Assembly (NCBI GenBank): GCA_001825665.1
Contig: MHXZ01000103.1
Location: forward strand, 5,993-69,992
Length of the DNA: 64,000 bases
DNA from: Planctomycetes bacterium GWF2_41_51
GTDB taxonomy: Bacteria; Planctomycetota; Phycisphaerae; Sedimentisphaerales; UBA12454
Reading direction: 5' to 3'
In this document: positions 1,632 to 64,000 of the stretch, piece after piece
Layout: each line of letters opens with the position of its first letter
How positions within the stretch are numbered: the first letter of the stretch is position 1
Program-made: the position numbers and the translations under genes
Notes under the pieces: model-generated
What the model was told of the DNA's origin: nothing
What the model saw: the letters and a program-made list of their open reading frames with translations, nothing else
Databases searched by the model: none

Positions 1632-2639
1632 CTAATCTATAACCGCAAAAGCAACTGCCTCGATATTTTGAGGAGGAACGTTAGGCAGGAGTGCCTCATG
1701 GCTTGGGCTGATAATCAGATTGGGGCCAAGTAATTGTTTGATTCTTTTGACATATAATTTTATTTCTTCAGGATTGGAATTAACCAGCAAGTCCTGAGTA
1801 TCAACGGCACCCATGAAACTGATTCTGCCTTTAAATTCTTTAAGCGTTTGCGCATCCATTCCAACAGCTAAAGCCTGCAAAGGATGCAGGCAATCAACTC
1901 CAGCATCGATAAGCCTGTCAATAACTTTGTGAATAGAGCCGCAACTATGTAAAATCACCTGGTAATTATGCGCATGAGCCTGTTTTGTAAAAGTTCTGAA
2001 CCATGGCAGGATAAATTCATCAAATTGAGCGGGACCGCAAATCAAATCAAGCTGAGTTCCAAAATCGTTTCCGAAAAAGAAGCCGTCTATCTGATTGCCT
2101 GCCTCTTTATAAAAACGTTCATTCGCCTCATAATAGAATTGGCATACTTTGTCTGTCAACGCATGTACAACTTCCGGATGCGTATACATTTTTATCAAAT
2201 AATTTTCCATGCCGAAGAGGTCCATCACATTATGATAAAAGCACGTCCAAAAACCACTGGCACGATAAAAATCGCCAGCGGTTCGAAGATGCTCAATACA
2301 TTCATCGAAATTAAGATAATCAGGATTTGGCCAGTCATAATCATTTATTTGAGCAATATTCTGGCAATCAGCAAATACGGGTTTGCAATTTGGATCTTTA
2401 TTGAGACCCGAATCAAACATTTCCTTACCTTCGGGATGCCTATAAGTTGATTTTATAAATTGAGGTGAAATCCATCGCAAATCATCACCGAGTTTTTGTC
2501 TTAATTGTTCTTCCGTTTCGGTTCCGAAATAATTGTGGTAAATCGGCCATGTATCCGGATGAGGATTGCCCAGCCAAAAACCACATCTGTCGGCGACACT
2601 GCCGCTAATAATTTTTTTTAAACGTATTCGACTGTTCAT
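1632..2639 (-). CDS. URO-D/methylcobamide methyltransferase-like TIM-barrel protein
   Basis: GNDFGTQ, ILHSCG, LHPLQ, FMGAVDTQ, ISPSHEAL motifs; lacks the HemE RQAGR motif. Confidence 0.8.
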   Translation of the reverse strand: MNSRIRLKKIISGSVADRCGFWLGNPHPDTWPIYHNYFGTETEEQLRQKLGDDLRWISPQFIKSTYRHPEGKEMFDSGLNKDPNCKPVFADCQNIAQINDYDWPNPDYLNFDECIEHLRTAGDFYRASGFWTCFYHNVMDLFGMENYLIKMYTHPEVVHALTDKVCQFYYEANERFYKEAGNQIDGFFFGNDFGTQLDLICGPAQFDEFILPWFRTFTKQAHAHNYQVILHSCGSIHKVIDRLIDAGVDCLHPLQALAVGMDAQTLKEFKGRISFMGAVDTQDLLVNSNPEEIKLYVKRIKQLLGPNLIISPSHEALLPNVPPQNIEAVAFAVID

Positions 2640-2672
2640 ATTTTGTCCACATTTAGCTTAAACAAATATTTT

Positions 2673-3836
2673 TTAATAAACGCATTTTTTAGCTTCATCG
2701 CCGAAAGCCTCGAGTAATTCCAAATCTGCGTCGAAGAAATGGTCTGAGGGCGCAAGAATATATGCGCCATTTCTTCCGGCTTCTTCAAAACATCTTCGCA
2801 CTTCGGCGCGCACATCAGCAGGAGTGCAATCTTTGAAAAAATGCAACTGGTCAAAACCGCCTATCATACAAATATCTGATGGAATACGTTTTCGCGCCTC
2901 AGCAAGATTGGCGTCGCCGCCCATGCCGACTGGAGTAAAGGTTTCCATCGCGTCGGGCTTCATCGCCGCGATCTTTTCGAGTATCGGCATCATGCCTCCG
3001 CAGGTGTGATAAACGACCCTTTGTCCGGCATTGTGTGCGGCCTCTATGATGGGCATATCATAAGGAGCTACGAATTCATCAAATAATTTTGGTGATATGA
3101 CGGTAGATGATGCATCTCCGCCGCCCAATTCGAGAACGTCATATTTAGCGTCCTTGAGCGACTGGGTGAAAATTAATTTTCTTTCCTGTAAGATTTTTAG
3201 AAAGCTGTGCACCCATTGCGGATCATCGAATGTCGCCATGATGAGTTCTTCAATGCCGAAGAGGCATGCAGCATCCTGCCAACAGCCGGGCTGGCCGAAT
3301 ATATCGAAACATGCGATGTGTCCGCGGACAATGCCTCGTTCTCCAAATTCGGCTGCAACATGGTTGACGCTTTGCACATCACATTTTGGGGCTGCGGCAT
3401 ATTTGCCAATCAGGTCAATATCGTTTTTGTTTTTTATAAGGCGCTCGGTTACCCATGATGTGTAATCATTGGAGCCTATCGACATTGTAAGTTCGCCGCC
3501 AGGCGTTTTGAATCTGTATCGGGTCGTAGGATATTTTTGGTGCGGTACGTCCTCCCATTCAATATGCCATTGGTCGGATGAGATAAGACGACTGCCAAGA
3601 AAATCCAGCTCGCCCTGGTTAGGATTATAATACTCGCCTTTTTGCTCATCCGGACGATGAGGCACAGCCCAGGCTATCGGATCGAAGCCAAAACGGTCAA
3701 AAAATTCATCTATGTTTGAACCGTTCATACAATTTTTTAGAAAGAAAGGCATTACATGGTGTGTTGTAATCGGCAGGCGGTCAGGTTTTCCGCCTTTAAG
3801 GGCACAAATCATTCTTTGTTTTGAAGTCATTTGCAT
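2673..3836 (-). CDS. URO-D/methylcobamide methyltransferase-like protein
   Basis: MTSKQRM..AL.GGKPDRLP N-terminus, ISPKLFDEFVAPY, YHTCGG, MIGGFDQ, YILAPSDH. Confidence 0.8.
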   Translation of the reverse strand: MQMTSKQRMICALKGGKPDRLPITTHHVMPFFLKNCMNGSNIDEFFDRFGFDPIAWAVPHRPDEQKGEYYNPNQGELDFLGSRLISSDQWHIEWEDVPHQKYPTTRYRFKTPGGELTMSIGSNDYTSWVTERLIKNKNDIDLIGKYAAAPKCDVQSVNHVAAEFGERGIVRGHIACFDIFGQPGCWQDAACLFGIEELIMATFDDPQWVHSFLKILQERKLIFTQSLKDAKYDVLELGGGDASSTVISPKLFDEFVAPYDMPIIEAAHNAGQRVVYHTCGGMMPILEKIAAMKPDAMETFTPVGMGGDANLAEARKRIPSDICMIGGFDQLHFFKDCTPADVRAEVRRCFEEAGRNGAYILAPSDHFFDADLELLEAFGDEAKKCVY

Positions 3837-3839
3837 AAG

Positions 3840-63224: not shown

Positions 63225-63310
63225 AAGTTATCTCCATTCAAGTTAATTTTATTTTCTGATTGGGATCCCGTTACGAATTAAAACATTGAAGCAAAATAGA
63301 ATGTGAGAGG

Positions 63311-63371
63311 ATTATAGCTGAGACTATTTATATAAACAGGTCATTTCACGACAAAATGGTATCACTTGACG
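63311..63371 (-). promoter_or_regulatory. Locus-B operator B3 plus TATAAT
   Basis: aggtcatttcacg 63338 and gtatcacttgacg 63359; minus-strand TATAAT at 63311-63316. Confidence 0.6.
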
Positions 63372-63384
63372 AAATTATATTGAA

Positions 63385-64000
63385 TTATATTAAACGTTTT
63401 TTTCTAAAAGCCTGGGGACTCGATTTACATTCTTTTTTGAAAAAACGTGACATATTATGATTGCTGGCGTATCCAAGCACATCTGCGATTTGCGAGATAG
63501 TCATATTTGTTTCAAGCAGCATTTGTTTTATGCGGGTCATACGGGCACGTTTTAATTCATCTCGCATTGACCAATCGATTGCTTTCCTGAATCTTTTTTG
63601 CAAAACTCTTAAGCTTAAACCAATATATTCGGAAACAGATTCTGCGCTGATGTCCATGTGCGAACGTTCACGGATATAAGCAATCGCTCGGGCAACTTCC
63701 CTGTCTTCAATAGCCAGCACATCGGTCGATTGCCTTGTTGCAACCTGCGTTGGAAGAACTATGATTCTTTTTTTTGAGGTACTTTTCTTCATCATCATTA
63801 AATCCAGAACTTCGGCCGATTCAAAGCCTGCCTGTTCGCTGTTTAATGAAACACTGGAAAGAGGAGGATTTGAAAATTCGCAAATCAACTCATCATTATC
63901 GACACCTATAACCGCGACATCTTCGGGAACATTTACCTGGATAGATTTACACGCTTCCATAACATGCTCGGCACGATCATCATTGCATGCCATTATTCCA
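63385..64000 (-). CDS. XylR-type activator, 5'-truncated by window end
   Basis: IMACNDDRA, VPEDVAVIGVDND, PPLSSV, TRQSTD, AraC HTH IADVLGY...FFKK...SPQAFR; frame is open to 64000. Confidence 0.9.
   Translation of the reverse strand, partial: GIMACNDDRAEHVMEACKSIQVNVPEDVAVIGVDNDELICEFSNPPLSSVSLNSEQAGFESAEVLDLMMMKKSTSKKRIIVLPTQVATRQSTDVLAIEDREVARAIAYIRERSHMDISAESVSEYIGLSLRVLQKRFRKAIDWSMRDELKRARMTRIKQMLLETNMTISQIADVLGYASNHNMSRFFKKECKSSPQAFRKKRLI

What the first reader, a model, noticed from the sequence alone, without database searches (positions are those of the whole stretch)
1632..64000. Two tandem SusC/D-free glycan loci built from one kit: pilin, PEP-CTERM, dockerin-tagged binder, SSS, URO-D and XylR
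Seen: loci A and B have non-overlapping CAZyme sets, yet each has a XylR, one DUF1559 prepilin, one PEP-CTERM protein, dockerin-tagged secreted proteins, SSS symporter(s) and URO-D-like enzymes. Both share the transcription order PEP-CTERM > dockerin protein(s) > pilin > (nearby) SSS > URO-D. No TonB-dependent receptor, SusD or ABC transporter appears in 62 kb. Known: Bacteroidota PULs use SusC/D; planctomycetes have expanded DUF1559 pilins of unknown function. Inference: this is a planctomycete PUL type in which a substrate-specific pilin and surface-anchored binders capture glycan, and SSS plus URO-D handle the released sugars.
Basis: partly seen in the sequence, partly recalled or inferred. 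Interest (0 to 1): 0.88.

Follow-up and report, generated by a model that had tools for sequence, protein, structure and literature searches.

The report
Pilin-lectin cassettes in planctomycete sugar operons
Two sugar-degradation gene clusters of an uncultured planctomycete each begin with the same three cell-envelope parts (an anchored surface protein, secreted lectin-like proteins and a pilin-like protein), and this trio recurs dozens of times in the genome and its relatives, so it is a candidate for how these bacteria capture sugars without the usual outer-membrane receptors.

Summary
Both loci carry a XylR-type regulator, one PEP-CTERM protein, secreted proteins with a Cys-rich dockerin-like C-terminal tag, one prepilin-like (DUF1559-type) protein, SSS symporters and URO-D-like enzymes, in the stated order. 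None of the 38 ORFs of 150 aa or more matches TonB-receptor, SusD or ABC families, and the whole genome has no TonB-dependent receptor match.

The "kit" splits in two. The core is an envelope cassette: of 68 pilin-like genes, 41 lie within 3 genes of a PEP-CTERM gene (8.8 expected) and 46 within 3 of a LamG/tag gene (8.7 expected), 0 of 1000 shifts reaching either. It recurs in 8 relatives of the same order. XylR-type regulators sit upstream. SSS genes are linked in this genome only. URO-D-like genes are linked to SSS, not significantly to pilins.

Corrections: the "dockerin" is sub-threshold and no cohesin is found, GH2 occurs in both loci, and gene order varies genome-wide.

Best reading: substrate-specific envelope modules, a bacterial analogue of the archaeal bindosome or of "fishing-rod" pili. 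Function is inferred from context only. Rating: new variant of a known kind.

The parts
30089..31270 (+). XylR-type regulator of locus A (sugar-binding-protein-like sensor plus AraC HTH), divergent from GH35
   Evidence: Peripla_BP_3 E 2.3e-32 and HTH_18 E 6.8e-18. PBP1_XylR scores 25.4 bits, below its cut-off of 27.
26930..29776 (-). GH35 beta-galactosidase-like protein, first gene of the locus A operon, with a signal-peptide-like N-terminus
   Evidence: Glyco_hydro_35 E 3e-72. N-terminus read.
26123..26773 (-). Cassette A: small exported protein of one CBM4_9-like beta-sandwich plus a PEP-CTERM anchor
   Evidence: PEP-CTERM 25.3 bits against cut-off 20.7. TIGR02595 21.1 bits against 16. Atlas structure look-alikes carry CBM_4_9, TM 0.68. 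23% identical over 224 aa to the N-terminal domain of 24292-25878, pairwise E 8e-8.
24292..25878 (-). Cassette A: secreted protein with a CBM-like N-domain, LamG and a Cys-rich dockerin-like C-terminal tag
   Evidence: Laminin_G_3 E 4.7e-23. Tag found by regex and aligned in A3.
22184..24277 (-). Cassette A: secreted protein with DUF4082, LamG and the C-terminal tag
   Evidence: Laminin_G_3 E 9.3e-17 and DUF4082 E 3.2e-6. Tag.
22131..22162 (-). Terminator-like hairpin (12 pairs plus a T run) between the LamG gene and the pilin gene; promoter-like sites at 22010-22045 follow it
   Evidence: Consensus scan only. This is a match to a pattern, not proof of function.
20949..22001 (-). Cassette A: prepilin-like DUF1559 protein with an invariant alpha-1 helix, a variable head and an H-x9-DG motif
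   Evidence: N_methyl 28.2 bits and SBP_bac_10/DUF1559 29.2 bits, both over their cut-offs. TIGR02532. AF2 model pLDDT 85.7 shows a long N-terminal helix followed by beta-strands. No PDB match at E 0.001 or better.
19227..20837 (-). SSS symporter directly downstream of pilin A
   Evidence: SSF E 1.9e-42.
17702..19069 (-). URO-D-like cytoplasmic TIM-barrel enzyme (HxC...H motif)
   Evidence: URO-D E 1e-15. MtaA/CmuA family scores far below cut-off. Motif.
5616..17671 (-). Rest of locus A: GH2, SSS, GFO/IDH/MocA, GH4 alpha-galactosidase-like, SSS, GH38
   Evidence: Pfam. NF011657 alpha-galactosidase 574.9 bits against cut-off 486 for the GH4.
1632..3836 (-). Two tandem URO-D-like genes at the end of locus A
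   Evidence: URO-D E 6.3e-22 and 6.5e-21.
63385..64000 (-). XylR-type regulator of locus B, cut by the window end
   Evidence: Peripla_BP_3 and HTH_18. The full 389-aa ORF is seen in the contig.
56478..63224 (-). Four BNR/sialidase-like proteins and one beta-helix protein with the C-terminal tag (58577-60112). 61458-63224 and 58577-60112 carry the same N-terminal module as the PEP-CTERM protein of locus B.
   Evidence: BNR_2 hits. 40% identity over 229 aa, E 1e-40. 53% identity over 231 aa.
55246..56046 (-). Cassette B: small exported beta-helix-like protein with a PEP-CTERM anchor
   Evidence: PEP-CTERM 21.0 bits against cut-off 20.7. Atlas structure look-alikes are autotransporter-passenger or beta-helix proteins, TM 0.69-0.72.
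53602..55221 (-). Cassette B: secreted protein with the same N-module and the C-terminal tag
   Evidence: No Pfam hit at E 0.001 or better. Dockerin_1 E 0.028 on the tail. 29% identity over 255 aa to the PEP-CTERM protein.
52622..53524 (-). Cassette B: prepilin-like protein of the same family as pilin A, with H-x9-DS
   Evidence: N_methyl 32.4 bits. TIGR02532. 34% identical to pilin A in alignment A1.
48813..51344 (-). SSS symporter fused to a C-terminal URO-D-like domain, the only such fusion in the genome
   Evidence: SSF E 4.7e-38. Genome-built URO-D model matches residues 571-840 at E 1.8e-14. Pfam URO-D is sub-threshold at 19.4 bits against 23.9.
45188..48811 (-). URO-D-like enzyme (HxC...C, nearest MtaA), DHDPS/NanA-like aldolase and SASA-type esterase
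   Evidence: PDB 4ay7 MtaA E 3e-16.
31284..44642 (-). Exported CAZymes downstream in locus B: GH5-ricin, GH30-LamG, GH59 with a double tag, GDSL esterase, GH2, EEP-PL8 fusion
   Evidence: Pfam. Tag on GH59. Signal-peptide-like N-termini.

Best explanation
The window holds two sugar-regulated operon groups of a Sedimentisphaerales-like Phycisphaerae genome. Each opens with a copy of a recurrent, diversifying envelope cassette that has three parts:
1. A small exported protein anchored by PEP-CTERM/exosortase.
2. One to three secreted paralogues. They share the anchored protein's locus-specific N-terminal module, add LamG, CBM-like, beta-helix or BNR domains, and usually end in a Cys-rich, Ca-loop (half-dockerin-like) tag.
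3. One prepilin-like DUF1559 protein, with a near-invariant alpha-1 helix and a highly variable head.

Shown: the cassette is a real co-located unit. It is specific (PEP-CTERM and tagged genes appear in sugar loci mainly when a pilin gene is there), it usually lies just downstream of a sugar-type regulator, and it is conserved across families of the order.

Inferred mechanism: when the regulator senses its sugar, the operon makes a substrate-specific envelope front end. The pilin-like protein is cleaved by prepilin peptidase. Through its conserved helix it is built into, or held at, a shared type-IV-filament-like structure, where it displays a substrate-specific head. This would resemble the pilin-signal sugar-binding proteins of the Sulfolobus bindosome, or the proposed planctomycete 'fishing-rod' fibres. 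The PEP-CTERM and tagged lectin-like proteins would hold the glycan at the surface. Exported GH and PL enzymes cut it, and SSS symporters import the products. Cytoplasmic GH4, GFO-type oxidoreductase, aldolase and the metal-dependent URO-D-like barrels finish the job.

The URO-D-like enzymes belong to the uptake and cytoplasmic half (linked to SSS, once fused to it), not to the cassette.
For: ANNOTATION. All parts were identified by Pfam and NCBIfam.

GENOME-WIDE CO-LOCATION (own ORF set of 3940 genes; 1000 circular shifts). Of 68 pilin-like genes, the number within 3 genes of each partner is:
- PEP-CTERM: 41 (8.8 expected, 0 of 1000 shifts reach it)
- LamG or tag: 46 (8.7 expected, 0 of 1000)
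- XylR-type: 21 (4.0 expected, 0 of 1000)
- SSS: 17 (4.8 expected, 0 of 1000)
Other counts:
- 55 of 85 tagged proteins lie within 3 genes of a pilin gene.
- 49 of 50 adjacent pilin-partner pairs share a strand, with a median gap of 74 bp.

SPECIFICITY. Among XylR-type genes, 27 of 31 with a pilin nearby also have PEP-CTERM nearby, against 3 of 10 without a pilin. For SSS the figures are 22 of 31 against 4 of 20.

POLARITY (first-pass family sets). XylR is upstream of 18 pilins and downstream of 2. SSS is downstream of 15 and upstream of 4.

RELATIVES. In 40 loci from 8 genomes of 5 families of the order, 28 of 44 pilins have PEP-CTERM within 3 genes and 25 have LamG/tag. PEP-CTERM fills 30 of 248 gene slots at distance 1-3 but 6 of 276 at distance 4-8.

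SUGAR CONTEXT. The 80 neighbours of 20 other cassettes include GH31, GH28, pectinesterase, alginate lyase, sulfatase, glucoamylase, sugar regulators and sugar transporters.

SHARED MODULE. In 28 of 44 PEP-CTERM/tagged neighbour pairs the homology is BLAST-detectable, and in 23 the neighbour is the best hit among 120 candidates.

CONSTRAINT ON THE HELIX. The first 30 residues after the cleavage site are 79% identical among paralogues. Third codon positions at identical residues are only 37% identical. This points to purifying selection, not recent gene conversion.

MACHINERY IS PRESENT. The genome has two exosortases, seven secretins and a cluster with two PilB/GspE-type ATPases, a short PilT-like ATPase, a platform protein and pilins.

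NO ALTERNATIVE OUTER-MEMBRANE ROUTE. No TonB-dependent receptor is found in the genome.

BINDER LEAD. The locus A PEP-CTERM protein looks like CBM4_9.

PRECEDENTS. Bindosome: abstract of PMC3047682. Fishing-rod hypothesis: passage in PMC12078418. 28 secretion-related proteins, with the type II secretion system named, rise on fucoidan in a planctomycete strain: passages in PMC11685898.
Against: - There is no expression, localisation or binding data of any kind for these genes.
- The confident model of pilin A (pLDDT 85.7) has no PDB match at E 0.001 or better, so neither a pilin head nor a sugar-binding fold is shown by structure.
- No machine-linked pilin shares the cassette-type alpha-1. Those pilins match 11-14 of 30 consensus positions, against a mean of 25.7 for cassette pilins. 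The assembly machine is therefore unidentified, and polymerisation is an assumption.
- A terminator-like hairpin and promoter-like sites lie just upstream of pilin A, so it may not be co-transcribed with the other cassette genes (pattern match only).
- The SSS link does not show in the relatives' sample (2 of 248 near slots against 6 of 276 far).
- The cassette is weak outside the order. PEP-CTERM lies within 3 genes of 3 of 19 pilins in Phycisphaerae-titled loci and of 10 of 48 in other, mostly Planctomycetia-titled, loci.
- Gene order within the cassette varies.
- The relatives' loci were chosen as best matches to an alignment of cassette pilins, which may favour cassette-type genes.
- Some cassettes sit beside ABC or MFS transporters rather than SSS.
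- The PEP-CTERM and tag sets rest on my own regular expressions (109 and 85 genes). Pfam finds 79 PEP-CTERM matches at E 0.01 or better.
Confidence: 0.5

Rival explanations
1. Secretion or display adaptor. The pilin-like proteins are operon-specific pseudopilins of a type II secretion-like piston. Their job is to export or surface-display the co-encoded tagged and PEP-CTERM proteins (and perhaps the CAZymes), not to bind glycan themselves.
For: - The best NCBIfam similarity of both pilins is to the T2SS major pseudopilin GspG, over the N-terminal part only, at E 5.6e-9 and 1.8e-8.
- Public sources name close homologues 'type II secretion system protein' or 'PilD-dependent protein PddA'.
- The tightest partner of the pilin is the tagged secreted protein: 55 of 85 lie within 3 genes.
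- There are seven secretins.
- The type II secretion system is reported up-regulated on fucoidan in a planctomycete (passages in PMC11685898).
Against: - GspG scores are far below the cut-off (36 bits against 88.85).
- No known T2SS uses substrate-specific pseudopilins (my own knowledge, not tested here).
- A highly variable 200-250 aa head is not needed for a piston.
- Dedicated small pilins already accompany several of the secretin clusters, and they have a different alpha-1.
Confidence: 0.22
2. Periplasmic or inner-membrane-anchored solute binder or sensor. The pilin-like protein is not polymerised. It stays anchored by its helix and hands oligosaccharides to the adjacent SSS symporter, or signals to the regulator. 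This is the strict bindosome or anchored-SBP reading.
For: - Pfam labels the family SBP_bac_10 (a name only).
- SSS follows pilin A directly, and SSS genes are enriched within 3 genes of pilins in this genome (17 of 68 against 4.8 expected).
- The archaeal precedent is the abstract of PMC3047682.
- No machine-linked pilin shares the cassette alpha-1.
Against: - Foldseek finds no periplasmic binding protein, although such folds are abundant in the PDB.
- SSS transporters are not known to use binding proteins (my own knowledge).
- The SSS link is absent in the relatives' sample.
- The strongest partners are secreted and surface proteins, not transporters.
Confidence: 0.13
3. Adhesion or matrix module. 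The cassette attaches the cell to a particular particle or polymer, or builds a substrate-induced matrix (PEP-CTERM proteins are associated with exopolysaccharide and floc formation). It has no role in uptake.
For: - There are 79 to 109 PEP-CTERM proteins and two exosortases.
- NCBIfam lists the flocculation protein PepA among weak hits of the locus A protein.
- Lectin-like LamG and CBM folds are present.
Against: - This does not explain one pilin-like gene per operon, or the placement directly after sugar regulators.
- It overlaps with the main reading and cannot be separated from it by sequence alone.
Confidence: 0.1
4. Chance. The families are so large in this genome that two loci sharing the same parts means nothing.
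For: The families are very large: 86 URO-D-like, 51 SSS, 68 pilin-like, 109 PEP-CTERM, in a 4.8 Mb genome. For URO-D with pilins, chance is indeed adequate: 152 of 1000 shifts reach the observed value.
Against: For the core trio, 0 of 1000 circular shifts reach the observed value. There is distance decay in relatives and a conditional association.
Confidence: 0.03

Closest known systems
Sulfolobus bindosome (sugar-binding proteins with class III, type IV pilin-like signal peptides, assembled by the Bas system)
   Same: Substrate-specific sugar-uptake proteins carry a pilin-type N-terminus and depend on a type-IV-filament-like assembly system (abstract of PMC3047682). Here there is likewise one pilin-type protein per sugar operon, with a conserved N-terminus and a variable body.
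   Different: It is archaeal, and its binders are bona fide ABC-transporter binding proteins. Here the head has no detectable binding-protein fold, the neighbouring transporters are mostly SSS, the partners are PEP-CTERM and LamG proteins, and no Bas-like machine was identified.
Planctomycete 'fishing-rod' fibre hypothesis for polysaccharide uptake (Boedeker et al. 2017, as summarised in PMC12078418)
   Same: Pilin-like proteins are proposed to bind whole polysaccharides and pull them into the periplasm (passage).
   Different: The hypothesis rests on microscopy and dextran uptake in Planctomycetia. The 2017 text contains none of the words pilin, type IV, secretin or DUF1559. Here specific genes are tied to specific glycan operons, in anaerobic Phycisphaerae.
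Bacteroidota polysaccharide utilisation loci (SusC/SusD with surface glycan-binding proteins)
   Same: A regulator, CAZymes, surface binders and transporters are co-located and presumably co-induced, with one locus per glycan.
   Different: There is no SusC/SusD and no TonB-dependent receptor in the genome. The surface proteins are anchored by PEP-CTERM rather than lipid, a pilin-like protein is present, and inner-membrane import is by SSS.
Type II secretion pseudopilins and type IV pilins (GspG, PilA), and the DUF1559 / H-X9-DG paralogue families of PVC bacteria
   Same: The prepilin cleavage/methylation motif with Glu5 and a long alpha-1 helix followed by beta-strands. It is the same large family of unknown function.
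   Different: The genes are scattered one per sugar operon instead of sitting in a gsp or pil operon. The head is 200-250 aa with no PDB match. The alpha-1 class is distinct from the machine-linked pilins.
Cellulosomal dockerin-cohesin system
   Same: The C-terminal tag contains a Ca-loop-like D-x-N-x-D...D motif on secreted carbohydrate-related proteins. The genome also has 14 true Dockerin_1 domains elsewhere.
   Different: The window's tags are single repeats below the Pfam cut-off, with invariant cysteines. No cohesin is found in the genome.
MtaA/CmuA corrinoid methyltransferases and uroporphyrinogen decarboxylase (URO-D superfamily)
   Same: PF01208 matches. The nearest solved structure is MtaA 4ay7, with the H-x-C-G motif aligned.
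   Different: All scores are far below the equivalog cut-offs. The full H-C-C zinc triad is kept in only 4 of the 76 paralogues then aligned (86 under the final definition). Most have H-x-C/D with H, D or N. The two small corrinoid-type proteins are not adjacent to any of them. One copy is fused to an SSS transporter.

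Membership tests
Prepilin-type proteins (PF07963 N_methyl / TIGR02532) | N-terminal cleavage/methylation motif G|FTLxE followed by a hydrophobic helix | tested here: met
   Pilin A: 28.2 bits. Pilin B: 32.4 bits. The cut-off is 21.2. TIGR02532 scores 23.7 and 25.6 against 16.3. F, T, L, E and the helix are invariant in 22 paralogues.
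DUF1559 (PF07596, SBP_bac_10) | Score over the Pfam gathering cut-off | tested here: inconclusive
   Pilin A: 29.2 bits against 23.3, met. Pilin B: no hit at E 0.001 or better, but 34% identical to pilin A in A1. Only 16 of the genome's 68 pilin-like genes match the model.
H-X9-DG domain (TIGR04294; name recalled from the finding) | C-terminal H-x9-D-G motif behind the prepilin domain | tested here: inconclusive
   TIGR04294 is not among the NCBIfam hits of either pilin at E 0.01 or better. By direct reading, pilin A has H-x9-DG and pilin B has H-x9-DS. R261, H262, F270 and D272 are invariant or nearly invariant in 120 homologues.
T2SS major pseudopilin GspG (TIGR01710) | Equivalog score over the cut-off | tested here: not met
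   36.1 and 34.5 bits against 88.85, N-terminal part only.
PEP-CTERM / exosortase sorting | C-terminal PEP motif, hydrophobic stretch and basic tail | tested here: met
   PF07589 scores 25.3 and 21.0 bits against 20.7. TIGR02595 is met for locus A only.
PEP-CTERM / exosortase sorting | An exosortase in the same genome | tested here: met
   Two PF09721 matches, 180.6 and 166.8 bits.
Dockerin-cohesin (cellulosome-type) | Dockerin_1 domain (two Ca-binding repeats) over the cut-off | tested here: not met
   2 of 5 window tails reach E 0.03 and 15 bits, against a cut-off of 22.9. They cover profile positions 1-23 of 57 only. None of the genome's 14 true matches lies in the window.
Dockerin-cohesin (cellulosome-type) | A cohesin partner in the genome | tested here: not met
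   PF00963: 0 matches in the 95.6%-complete genome.
Bacteroidota-type PUL | SusC-like TonB-dependent receptor with a SusD-like partner | tested here: not met
   There are no such Pfam hits in the 38 ORFs. PF00593 has 0 matches in the genome. SusD was not searched genome-wide.
Sodium:solute symporter family (PF00474 / TIGR00813) | Score over the cut-off | tested here: met
   Four window genes score 113.9 to 232.9 bits against 22.8. One passes the NF007790 equivalog cut-off, 403.2 against 401.
Uroporphyrinogen decarboxylase HemE (TIGR01464) / MtaA (NF040654, TIGR01463) | Equivalog or subfamily cut-off; for MtaA also the His-Cys-Cys zinc site | tested here: not met
   PF01208 superfamily membership is met (58 to 164 bits). 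HemE scores 43.3 against 303. MtaA-type models score at most 128.7 against 244 to 400. H-C-C is kept in 4 of the 76 paralogues then aligned (86 under the final definition), including 47666-48811.
XylR-type regulator | Periplasmic-binding-protein-like sensor fused to an AraC-type HTH | tested here: met
   Peripla_BP_3 and HTH_18 are present in both regulators. The XylR-specific N-domain PF22177 scores 25.4 bits, below 27, so 'XylR-type' describes the architecture and is not orthology.
Archaeal bindosome | A pilin-type signal on a protein with a solute-binding-protein fold, plus a Bas-like assembly system | tested here: inconclusive
   The pilin-type signal is met. No binding-protein fold was detected. 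The assembly system was not identified. This is a likeness in how it may work, not membership.

The most novel reading that the evidence does not exclude
The DUF1559 / H-X9-DG 'pilins', one of the largest families of unknown function in PVC bacteria, are the substrate-recognition subunits of a bacterial bindosome-like or retractile filament system. Each glycan operon supplies its own head domain, together with a matched set of surface lectins that share a locus-specific N-terminal module. One copy of that module is anchored by PEP-CTERM and the others carry a Ca/Cys tag. This system would replace SusC/SusD-type capture in anaerobic Phycisphaerae.
Probability: 0.3. Interest if true: 0.85.

Novelty: new variant of a known kind. 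Interest (0 to 1): 0.66.

Why it matters
Phycisphaerae of this order carry some of the richest CAZyme sets among Planctomycetota. [quoted passage not shown] They have few or no TonB-dependent receptors, so how they seize and import polymers is an open question.

The cassette gives that question concrete, operon-by-operon candidate genes. It also offers a first testable function for the very large DUF1559 pilin-like family, for many PEP-CTERM proteins and for the LamG proteins of these genomes.

It further shows that the URO-D-like expansion (86 copies here, patchy across the class) belongs with sugar import and not with the surface module. The one SSS fusion marks a direct transporter-enzyme link worth an assay.

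Tried and rejected
1. URO-D as part of the pilin kit: rejected. 10 of 68 pilins against 6.7 expected, with 152 of 1000 shifts reaching that value. Only 1 URO-D-like gene appears in 40 relatives' loci.

2. URO-D-like as HemE or MtaA: rejected on cut-offs and on the metal triad. A classical corrinoid methyl-transfer system is not supported by context. The 10 B12-binding matches include two small corrinoid-type ORFs on C14, and none of their neighbours is URO-D-like.

3. URO-D/SSS adjacency beyond this genome: 0 of 28 foreign loci have an SSS within 1.5 kb, against 9 of 86 at the adjacent gene in the own genome. The sample is small, so this is left open.

4. First-pass family sets were flawed. 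jackhmmer drifted for SSS, XylR and LamG. The SSS seed carrying the fused URO-D-like domain pulled about seven URO-D-like proteins into 'SSS'. The sets were rebuilt with domain criteria, and all statistics were redone. The polarity counts still use the first-pass sets.

6. Complex prediction, pilin B head with the tag of its neighbour plus Ca: no support, score 0.00 against a mark of 0.32. This counts neither for nor against binding.

7. The look-up of sequencing runs: no RNA holder listed.

8. Machine for the cassette pilins. The C53 cluster (two long T2SSE ATPases, one short PilT-like ATPase, T2SSF and pilins) looked promising. Its pilins match only 11-14 of 30 cassette-consensus positions, so no assignment is made.

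9. Orthologues of the two window pilins in 11 other species of the genus: none at E 1e-40 or better, apart from one 43%-identical match for pilin B. No synteny test was possible.

10. Cassette outside the order: weak.

11. Literature. Searches found no paper that links DUF1559 or prepilin genes, PEP-CTERM genes and CAZyme operons, or URO-D-like genes and sugar loci. I saw listings and abstracts only, plus passages of PMC12078418, PMC5394234, PMC12673574, PMC11685898 and the 2024 preprint. Supplementary tables were closed. Those of PMC11685898 (which 28 secretion-related proteins rise on fucoidan) and of the preprint (cluster contents) may bear on novelty. Subscription papers on Sedimentisphaera genomes were not searchable.

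Full report
WHAT IS IN THE WINDOW

The window is G000:C103:5993-69992, from a 4.83 Mb, 138-contig genome that is 95.6% complete. GC content is 40-46%. Almost all genes lie on the minus strand.

I scanned all 38 non-nested ORFs of 150 aa or more against Pfam and 20 of them against NCBIfam.

Locus A starts with a XylR-type regulator (30089-31270, plus strand) that diverges from GH35. After GH35 come a PEP-CTERM protein, two LamG proteins, a prepilin/DUF1559 protein, an SSS symporter and a URO-D-like gene. These are followed by GH2, SSS, a GFO-type oxidoreductase, GH4, SSS, GH38, an unknown protein and two more URO-D-like genes.

Locus B starts with a second XylR-type regulator at the window's end. 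After it come four BNR proteins and a beta-helix protein, a PEP-CTERM protein, a tagged protein, a prepilin-like protein, a nucleoside-hydrolase-like protein, an SSS, a URO-D-like gene, a NanA-like aldolase and a SASA esterase. Six more exported CAZymes run down to an EEP-PL8 fusion.

No ORF matches TonB-dependent receptor, SusD or ABC families. By their N-termini, the GH, PL, esterase, BNR and cassette proteins are exported. The URO-D-likes, GH4, GFO and the aldolase are not (my reading of the N-termini, no predictor was run).

CORRECTIONS TO THE OBSERVATION

- GH2 occurs in both loci, so the CAZyme sets are not disjoint.
- The 'dockerin' is a roughly 50-residue C-terminal module with invariant C, D, C, D and W positions and usually two further cysteines. 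Only 2 of 5 window tails touch Pfam Dockerin_1, at E 0.03 and 15 bits against a cut-off of 22.9. The genome has 14 true dockerins elsewhere and no cohesin.
- Only pilin A passes the DUF1559 model. Pilin B is a homologue (34% identity) with H-x9-DS.
- The 843-aa 'SSS' of locus B is a fusion of an SSS with a URO-D-like domain.

IS IT MORE THAN CHANCE?

I laid down the genome, called 3940 ORFs and built family sets from window seeds. The families are very large: 86 URO-D-like, 51 SSS, 41 XylR-type, 68 pilin-like of 200-420 aa, 109 PEP-CTERM by regex and 85 tagged proteins. Pfam finds 79 PEP-CTERM matches at E 0.01 or better.

The control was 1000 circular shifts of each partner family. Pilin-like genes within 3 genes of each partner:

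| Partner | Observed (of 68) | Expected | Shifts reaching it |
|---|---|---|---|
| PEP-CTERM | 41 | 8.8 | 0 of 1000 |
| LamG or tag | 46 | 8.7 | 0 of 1000 |
| XylR-type | 21 | 4.0 | 0 of 1000 |
| SSS | 17 | 4.8 | 0 of 1000 |
| URO-D-like | 10 | 6.7 | 152 of 1000 |

Within 6 genes, URO-D-like reaches 19 of 68 against 11.3 expected (28 of 1000 shifts). URO-D-like genes do go with SSS: 25 of 86 within 3 genes against 5.9 expected (0 of 1000). They also go with each other.

Further counts:
- 54 of 68 pilins have at least one PEP-CTERM, LamG or tagged neighbour, and 33 have both kinds.
- The 14 'lone' pilins include five in one machine cluster.
- 49 of 50 adjacent pilin-partner pairs share a strand, with a median gap of 74 bp.
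- Within sugar loci, PEP-CTERM and tagged genes appear mainly where a pilin is present. Around XylR-type genes this is 27 of 31 against 3 of 10 (neighbouring genes are not independent).
- XylR-type genes lie upstream of the pilin (18 pilins against 2), and SSS and URO-D lie downstream (15 against 4; 12 against 2). PEP-CTERM lies upstream of 26 pilins and downstream of 13. The exact window order is met at 4 of 68 pilins, two of them here (first-pass sets).
- The 80 non-kit neighbours of 20 other cassettes are dominated by LamG (18). They otherwise include GH31, GH28, pectinesterase, alginate lyase, sulfatase, glucoamylase, sugar regulators of the GntR, LacI and AraC types, and MFS and ABC sugar transporters (only the 25 commonest of 74 families are shown).

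So the cassette sits in carbohydrate loci generally. It is not tied to XylR or to SSS alone.

RELATIVES

The closest pilin relatives are in MAGs titled Phycisphaerae, Sedimentisphaerales and 'Planctomycetes bacterium GWF2_42_9'. Named homologues come from Sedimentisphaera and Anaerohalosphaera.

Pilin-like copy number ranges from 8 to 79 in ten relatives of the order and rises with genome size. I examined 40 loci around pilins of 8 relatives from 5 families of the order. These loci were chosen as best matches to the cassette-pilin alignment, which is a possible bias. Results:
- 28 of 44 pilins have PEP-CTERM within 3 genes, 25 have LamG/tag, and 20 have both.
- PEP-CTERM fills 30 of 248 gene slots at distance 1-3 against 6 of 276 at distance 4-8.
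- LamG/tag fills 30 of 248 against 5 of 276.
- XylR-type fills 11 of 248 against 4 of 276.
- SSS fills 2 of 248 against 6 of 276.
- URO-D-like appears once.

In 80 loci from other lineages the trio is weak. PEP-CTERM lies within 3 genes of 3 of 19 pilins in Phycisphaerae-titled loci, 10 of 48 in other (mostly Planctomycetia-titled) loci and 1 of 6 in Verrucomicrobia-titled loci. My LamG model and tag regex may also be less sensitive there.

Neither window pilin has a close orthologue in 11 congeners, apart from one 43%-identical match for pilin B. The repertoire therefore turns over fast.

ANATOMY OF THE CASSETTE

The pilins. The first 30 residues after the cleavage site are 79% identical among 58 paralogues. 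Third codon positions at identical residues are only 37% identical. This points to old paralogues under strong constraint, not gene conversion. The heads are 21-36% identical.

An AF2 model of pilin A from 120 homologues is confident (pLDDT 85.7). It shows a 50-residue N-terminal helix followed by mostly beta structure. No PDB chain matches at E 0.001 or better.

The surface proteins. In both loci the PEP-CTERM protein is essentially a free-standing copy of the N-terminal module of its neighbours.
- Locus B: 53% identity to the beta-helix-tag protein, 40% to the 588-aa BNR protein and 29% to the 539-aa tagged protein.
- Locus A: 23% identity over 224 aa to the LamG-tag protein.
- Genome-wide, 28 of 44 such neighbour pairs are BLAST-detectable, and 23 are best hits among 120 candidates.

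The module differs between loci. It is CBM4_9-like in locus A (TM 0.68) and beta-helix or autotransporter-passenger-like in locus B (TM 0.69-0.72). Atlas matches are leads, not tests.

Machinery. The genome has two exosortases and seven secretins. It also has a cluster with two long T2SSE ATPases, one short PilT-like ATPase, a T2SSF platform protein and pilins. The pilins of that cluster and of the other machine clusters match only 11-14 of the 30 consensus alpha-1 positions, against a mean of 25.7 for cassette pilins. Which machine handles the cassette pilins is unknown.

A terminator-like hairpin and the best promoter-like sites of the scanned stretch lie just upstream of pilin A (consensus matches only).

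THE URO-D-LIKE GENES

They match PF01208, but HemE and MtaA equivalog scores are far below their cut-offs. The nearest structure is MtaA 4ay7, at E 3e-16. H-x-C-G is invariant in the five window copies. Across the 76 paralogues then aligned (86 under the final definition) the third ligand varies: HCH 12, DDH 9, HCD 7, HDH 7 and HCC only 4. This suggests metal-dependent barrels that are not classical zinc-thiolate methyltransferases.

The subfamily occurs in 23 of 41 sampled Phycisphaerae genomes, with patchy expansions. Candidate counts in the order run from 2 to 91. Their commonest single neighbour family is SSS, at 18 of 245 neighbours. I commit only to 'cytoplasmic, metal-dependent step on imported sugars', and the reaction is unknown.

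MECHANISM AND RIVALS

Shown: a specific, conserved, regulator-proximal cassette in glycan loci of a lineage that lacks, or nearly lacks, TonB-dependent receptors. There are none in this genome and 0-7 per genome in 31 genomes of the order, of which 20 have at least one.

Inferred: the pilin-like protein presents a substrate-specific head on or at a shared filament-type structure. The anchored and tagged lectin-like proteins hold the glycan. Exported enzymes cut it, SSS symporters import the products and cytoplasmic enzymes finish.

The nearest working analogues are the Sulfolobus bindosome (abstract of PMC3047682) and the planctomycete 'fishing-rod' hypothesis (passage in PMC12078418). The 2017 source paper for that hypothesis names no pilin genes. 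Secretion-system proteins rising on fucoidan in a planctomycete (passages in PMC11685898) fit this reading, but their identities are in supplements I could not open.

The rivals cannot be excluded from sequence:
- a secretion or display adaptor
- a non-polymerised anchored binder or sensor
- a pure adhesion or matrix role
Chance is excluded for the trio. It is adequate for the pilin/URO-D pairing.

NOVELTY AND VERDICT

All the families are known. CAZyme gene clusters in Phycisphaerae are known but uncharacterised. I found no paper linking these pilin-like genes, PEP-CTERM genes and tagged LamG proteins to glycan operons (searches; passages 53, 55, 56, 58, 59). The limits were ten searches, an open-access library and closed supplements.

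I rate it a new variant of a known kind. The finding is real and interesting. It is narrower than claimed (order-level, without URO-D, with a variable gene order), and its function is still inferred.

Noticed in passing
window 48813-51344 (-): An 843-aa SSS symporter carries a C-terminal URO-D-like domain (residues about 571-840). It is the only such fusion among 51 SSS and 86 URO-D-like genes of the genome, and it points to a direct transporter-enzyme coupling.
   Followed up: partly
window 31284-34133 (-): A polysaccharide lyase family 8 protein has an N-terminal endonuclease/exonuclease/phosphatase domain (residues 36-241). This is an unusual EEP-PL8 fusion.
   Followed up: no
window 56174-56455 (-): A 93-aa ORF with an N-terminal hydrophobic stretch and two CxxC pairs (zinc-ribbon-like) lies in the 432-bp gap between the BNR genes and the PEP-CTERM gene of locus B. 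It may be a small membrane regulator or may not be a gene.
   Followed up: no
window 3840-5573 (-): A 577-aa exported protein has no Pfam or NCBIfam hit. It is rich in D-x-D-x-D-G-like acidic repeats and sits between GH38 and two URO-D-like genes.
   Followed up: no
window 22010-22162 (-): A 12-pair terminator-like hairpin with a T run is followed by the best promoter-like matches of the scanned stretch, directly upstream of pilin A. The pilin may be transcribed on its own.
   Followed up: partly
window 37628-40516 (-): The GH59 (galactocerebrosidase-like) enzyme ends in two copies of the dockerin-like repeat, so the tag also occurs on catalytic proteins.
   Followed up: no
window 56478-63224 (-): There are four tandem BNR/sialidase-like paralogues. 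One of them (61458-63224) carries the locus-specific N-terminal module also found on the PEP-CTERM protein. The locus has a NanA-like aldolase and a SASA esterase, but no NanK/NanE-type gene was seen.
   Followed up: partly
G000:C53:44769-56403 (locus L191): A type-IV-filament cluster holds two long T2SSE ATPases with MshEN domains, a short PilT-like ATPase, a T2SSF platform protein and six pilin-like genes. Their alpha-1 helices differ from the cassette type.
   Followed up: yes
G000, several contigs (for example C20:19728-20468): Several URO-D-like paralogues contain in-frame stop codons, so they are possible pseudogenes in an expanding and contracting family.
   Followed up: no
G000:C73:26925-27509: A 194-aa pilin-like protein has the cassette-type alpha-1 (22 of 30 consensus positions) and lies two genes from a tagged protein. 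My 200-aa lower cut-off excluded it, so the count of cassette pilins is a slight underestimate.
   Followed up: partly
genus-level relatives G001-G006, G011, G071-G074: Pilin-like copy number and URO-D-like candidate counts differ many-fold among species of one genus (9 to 79 pilins; 4 to 91 URO-D candidates) and scale with genome size. This suggests rapid gain and loss of whole sugar loci.
   Followed up: partly
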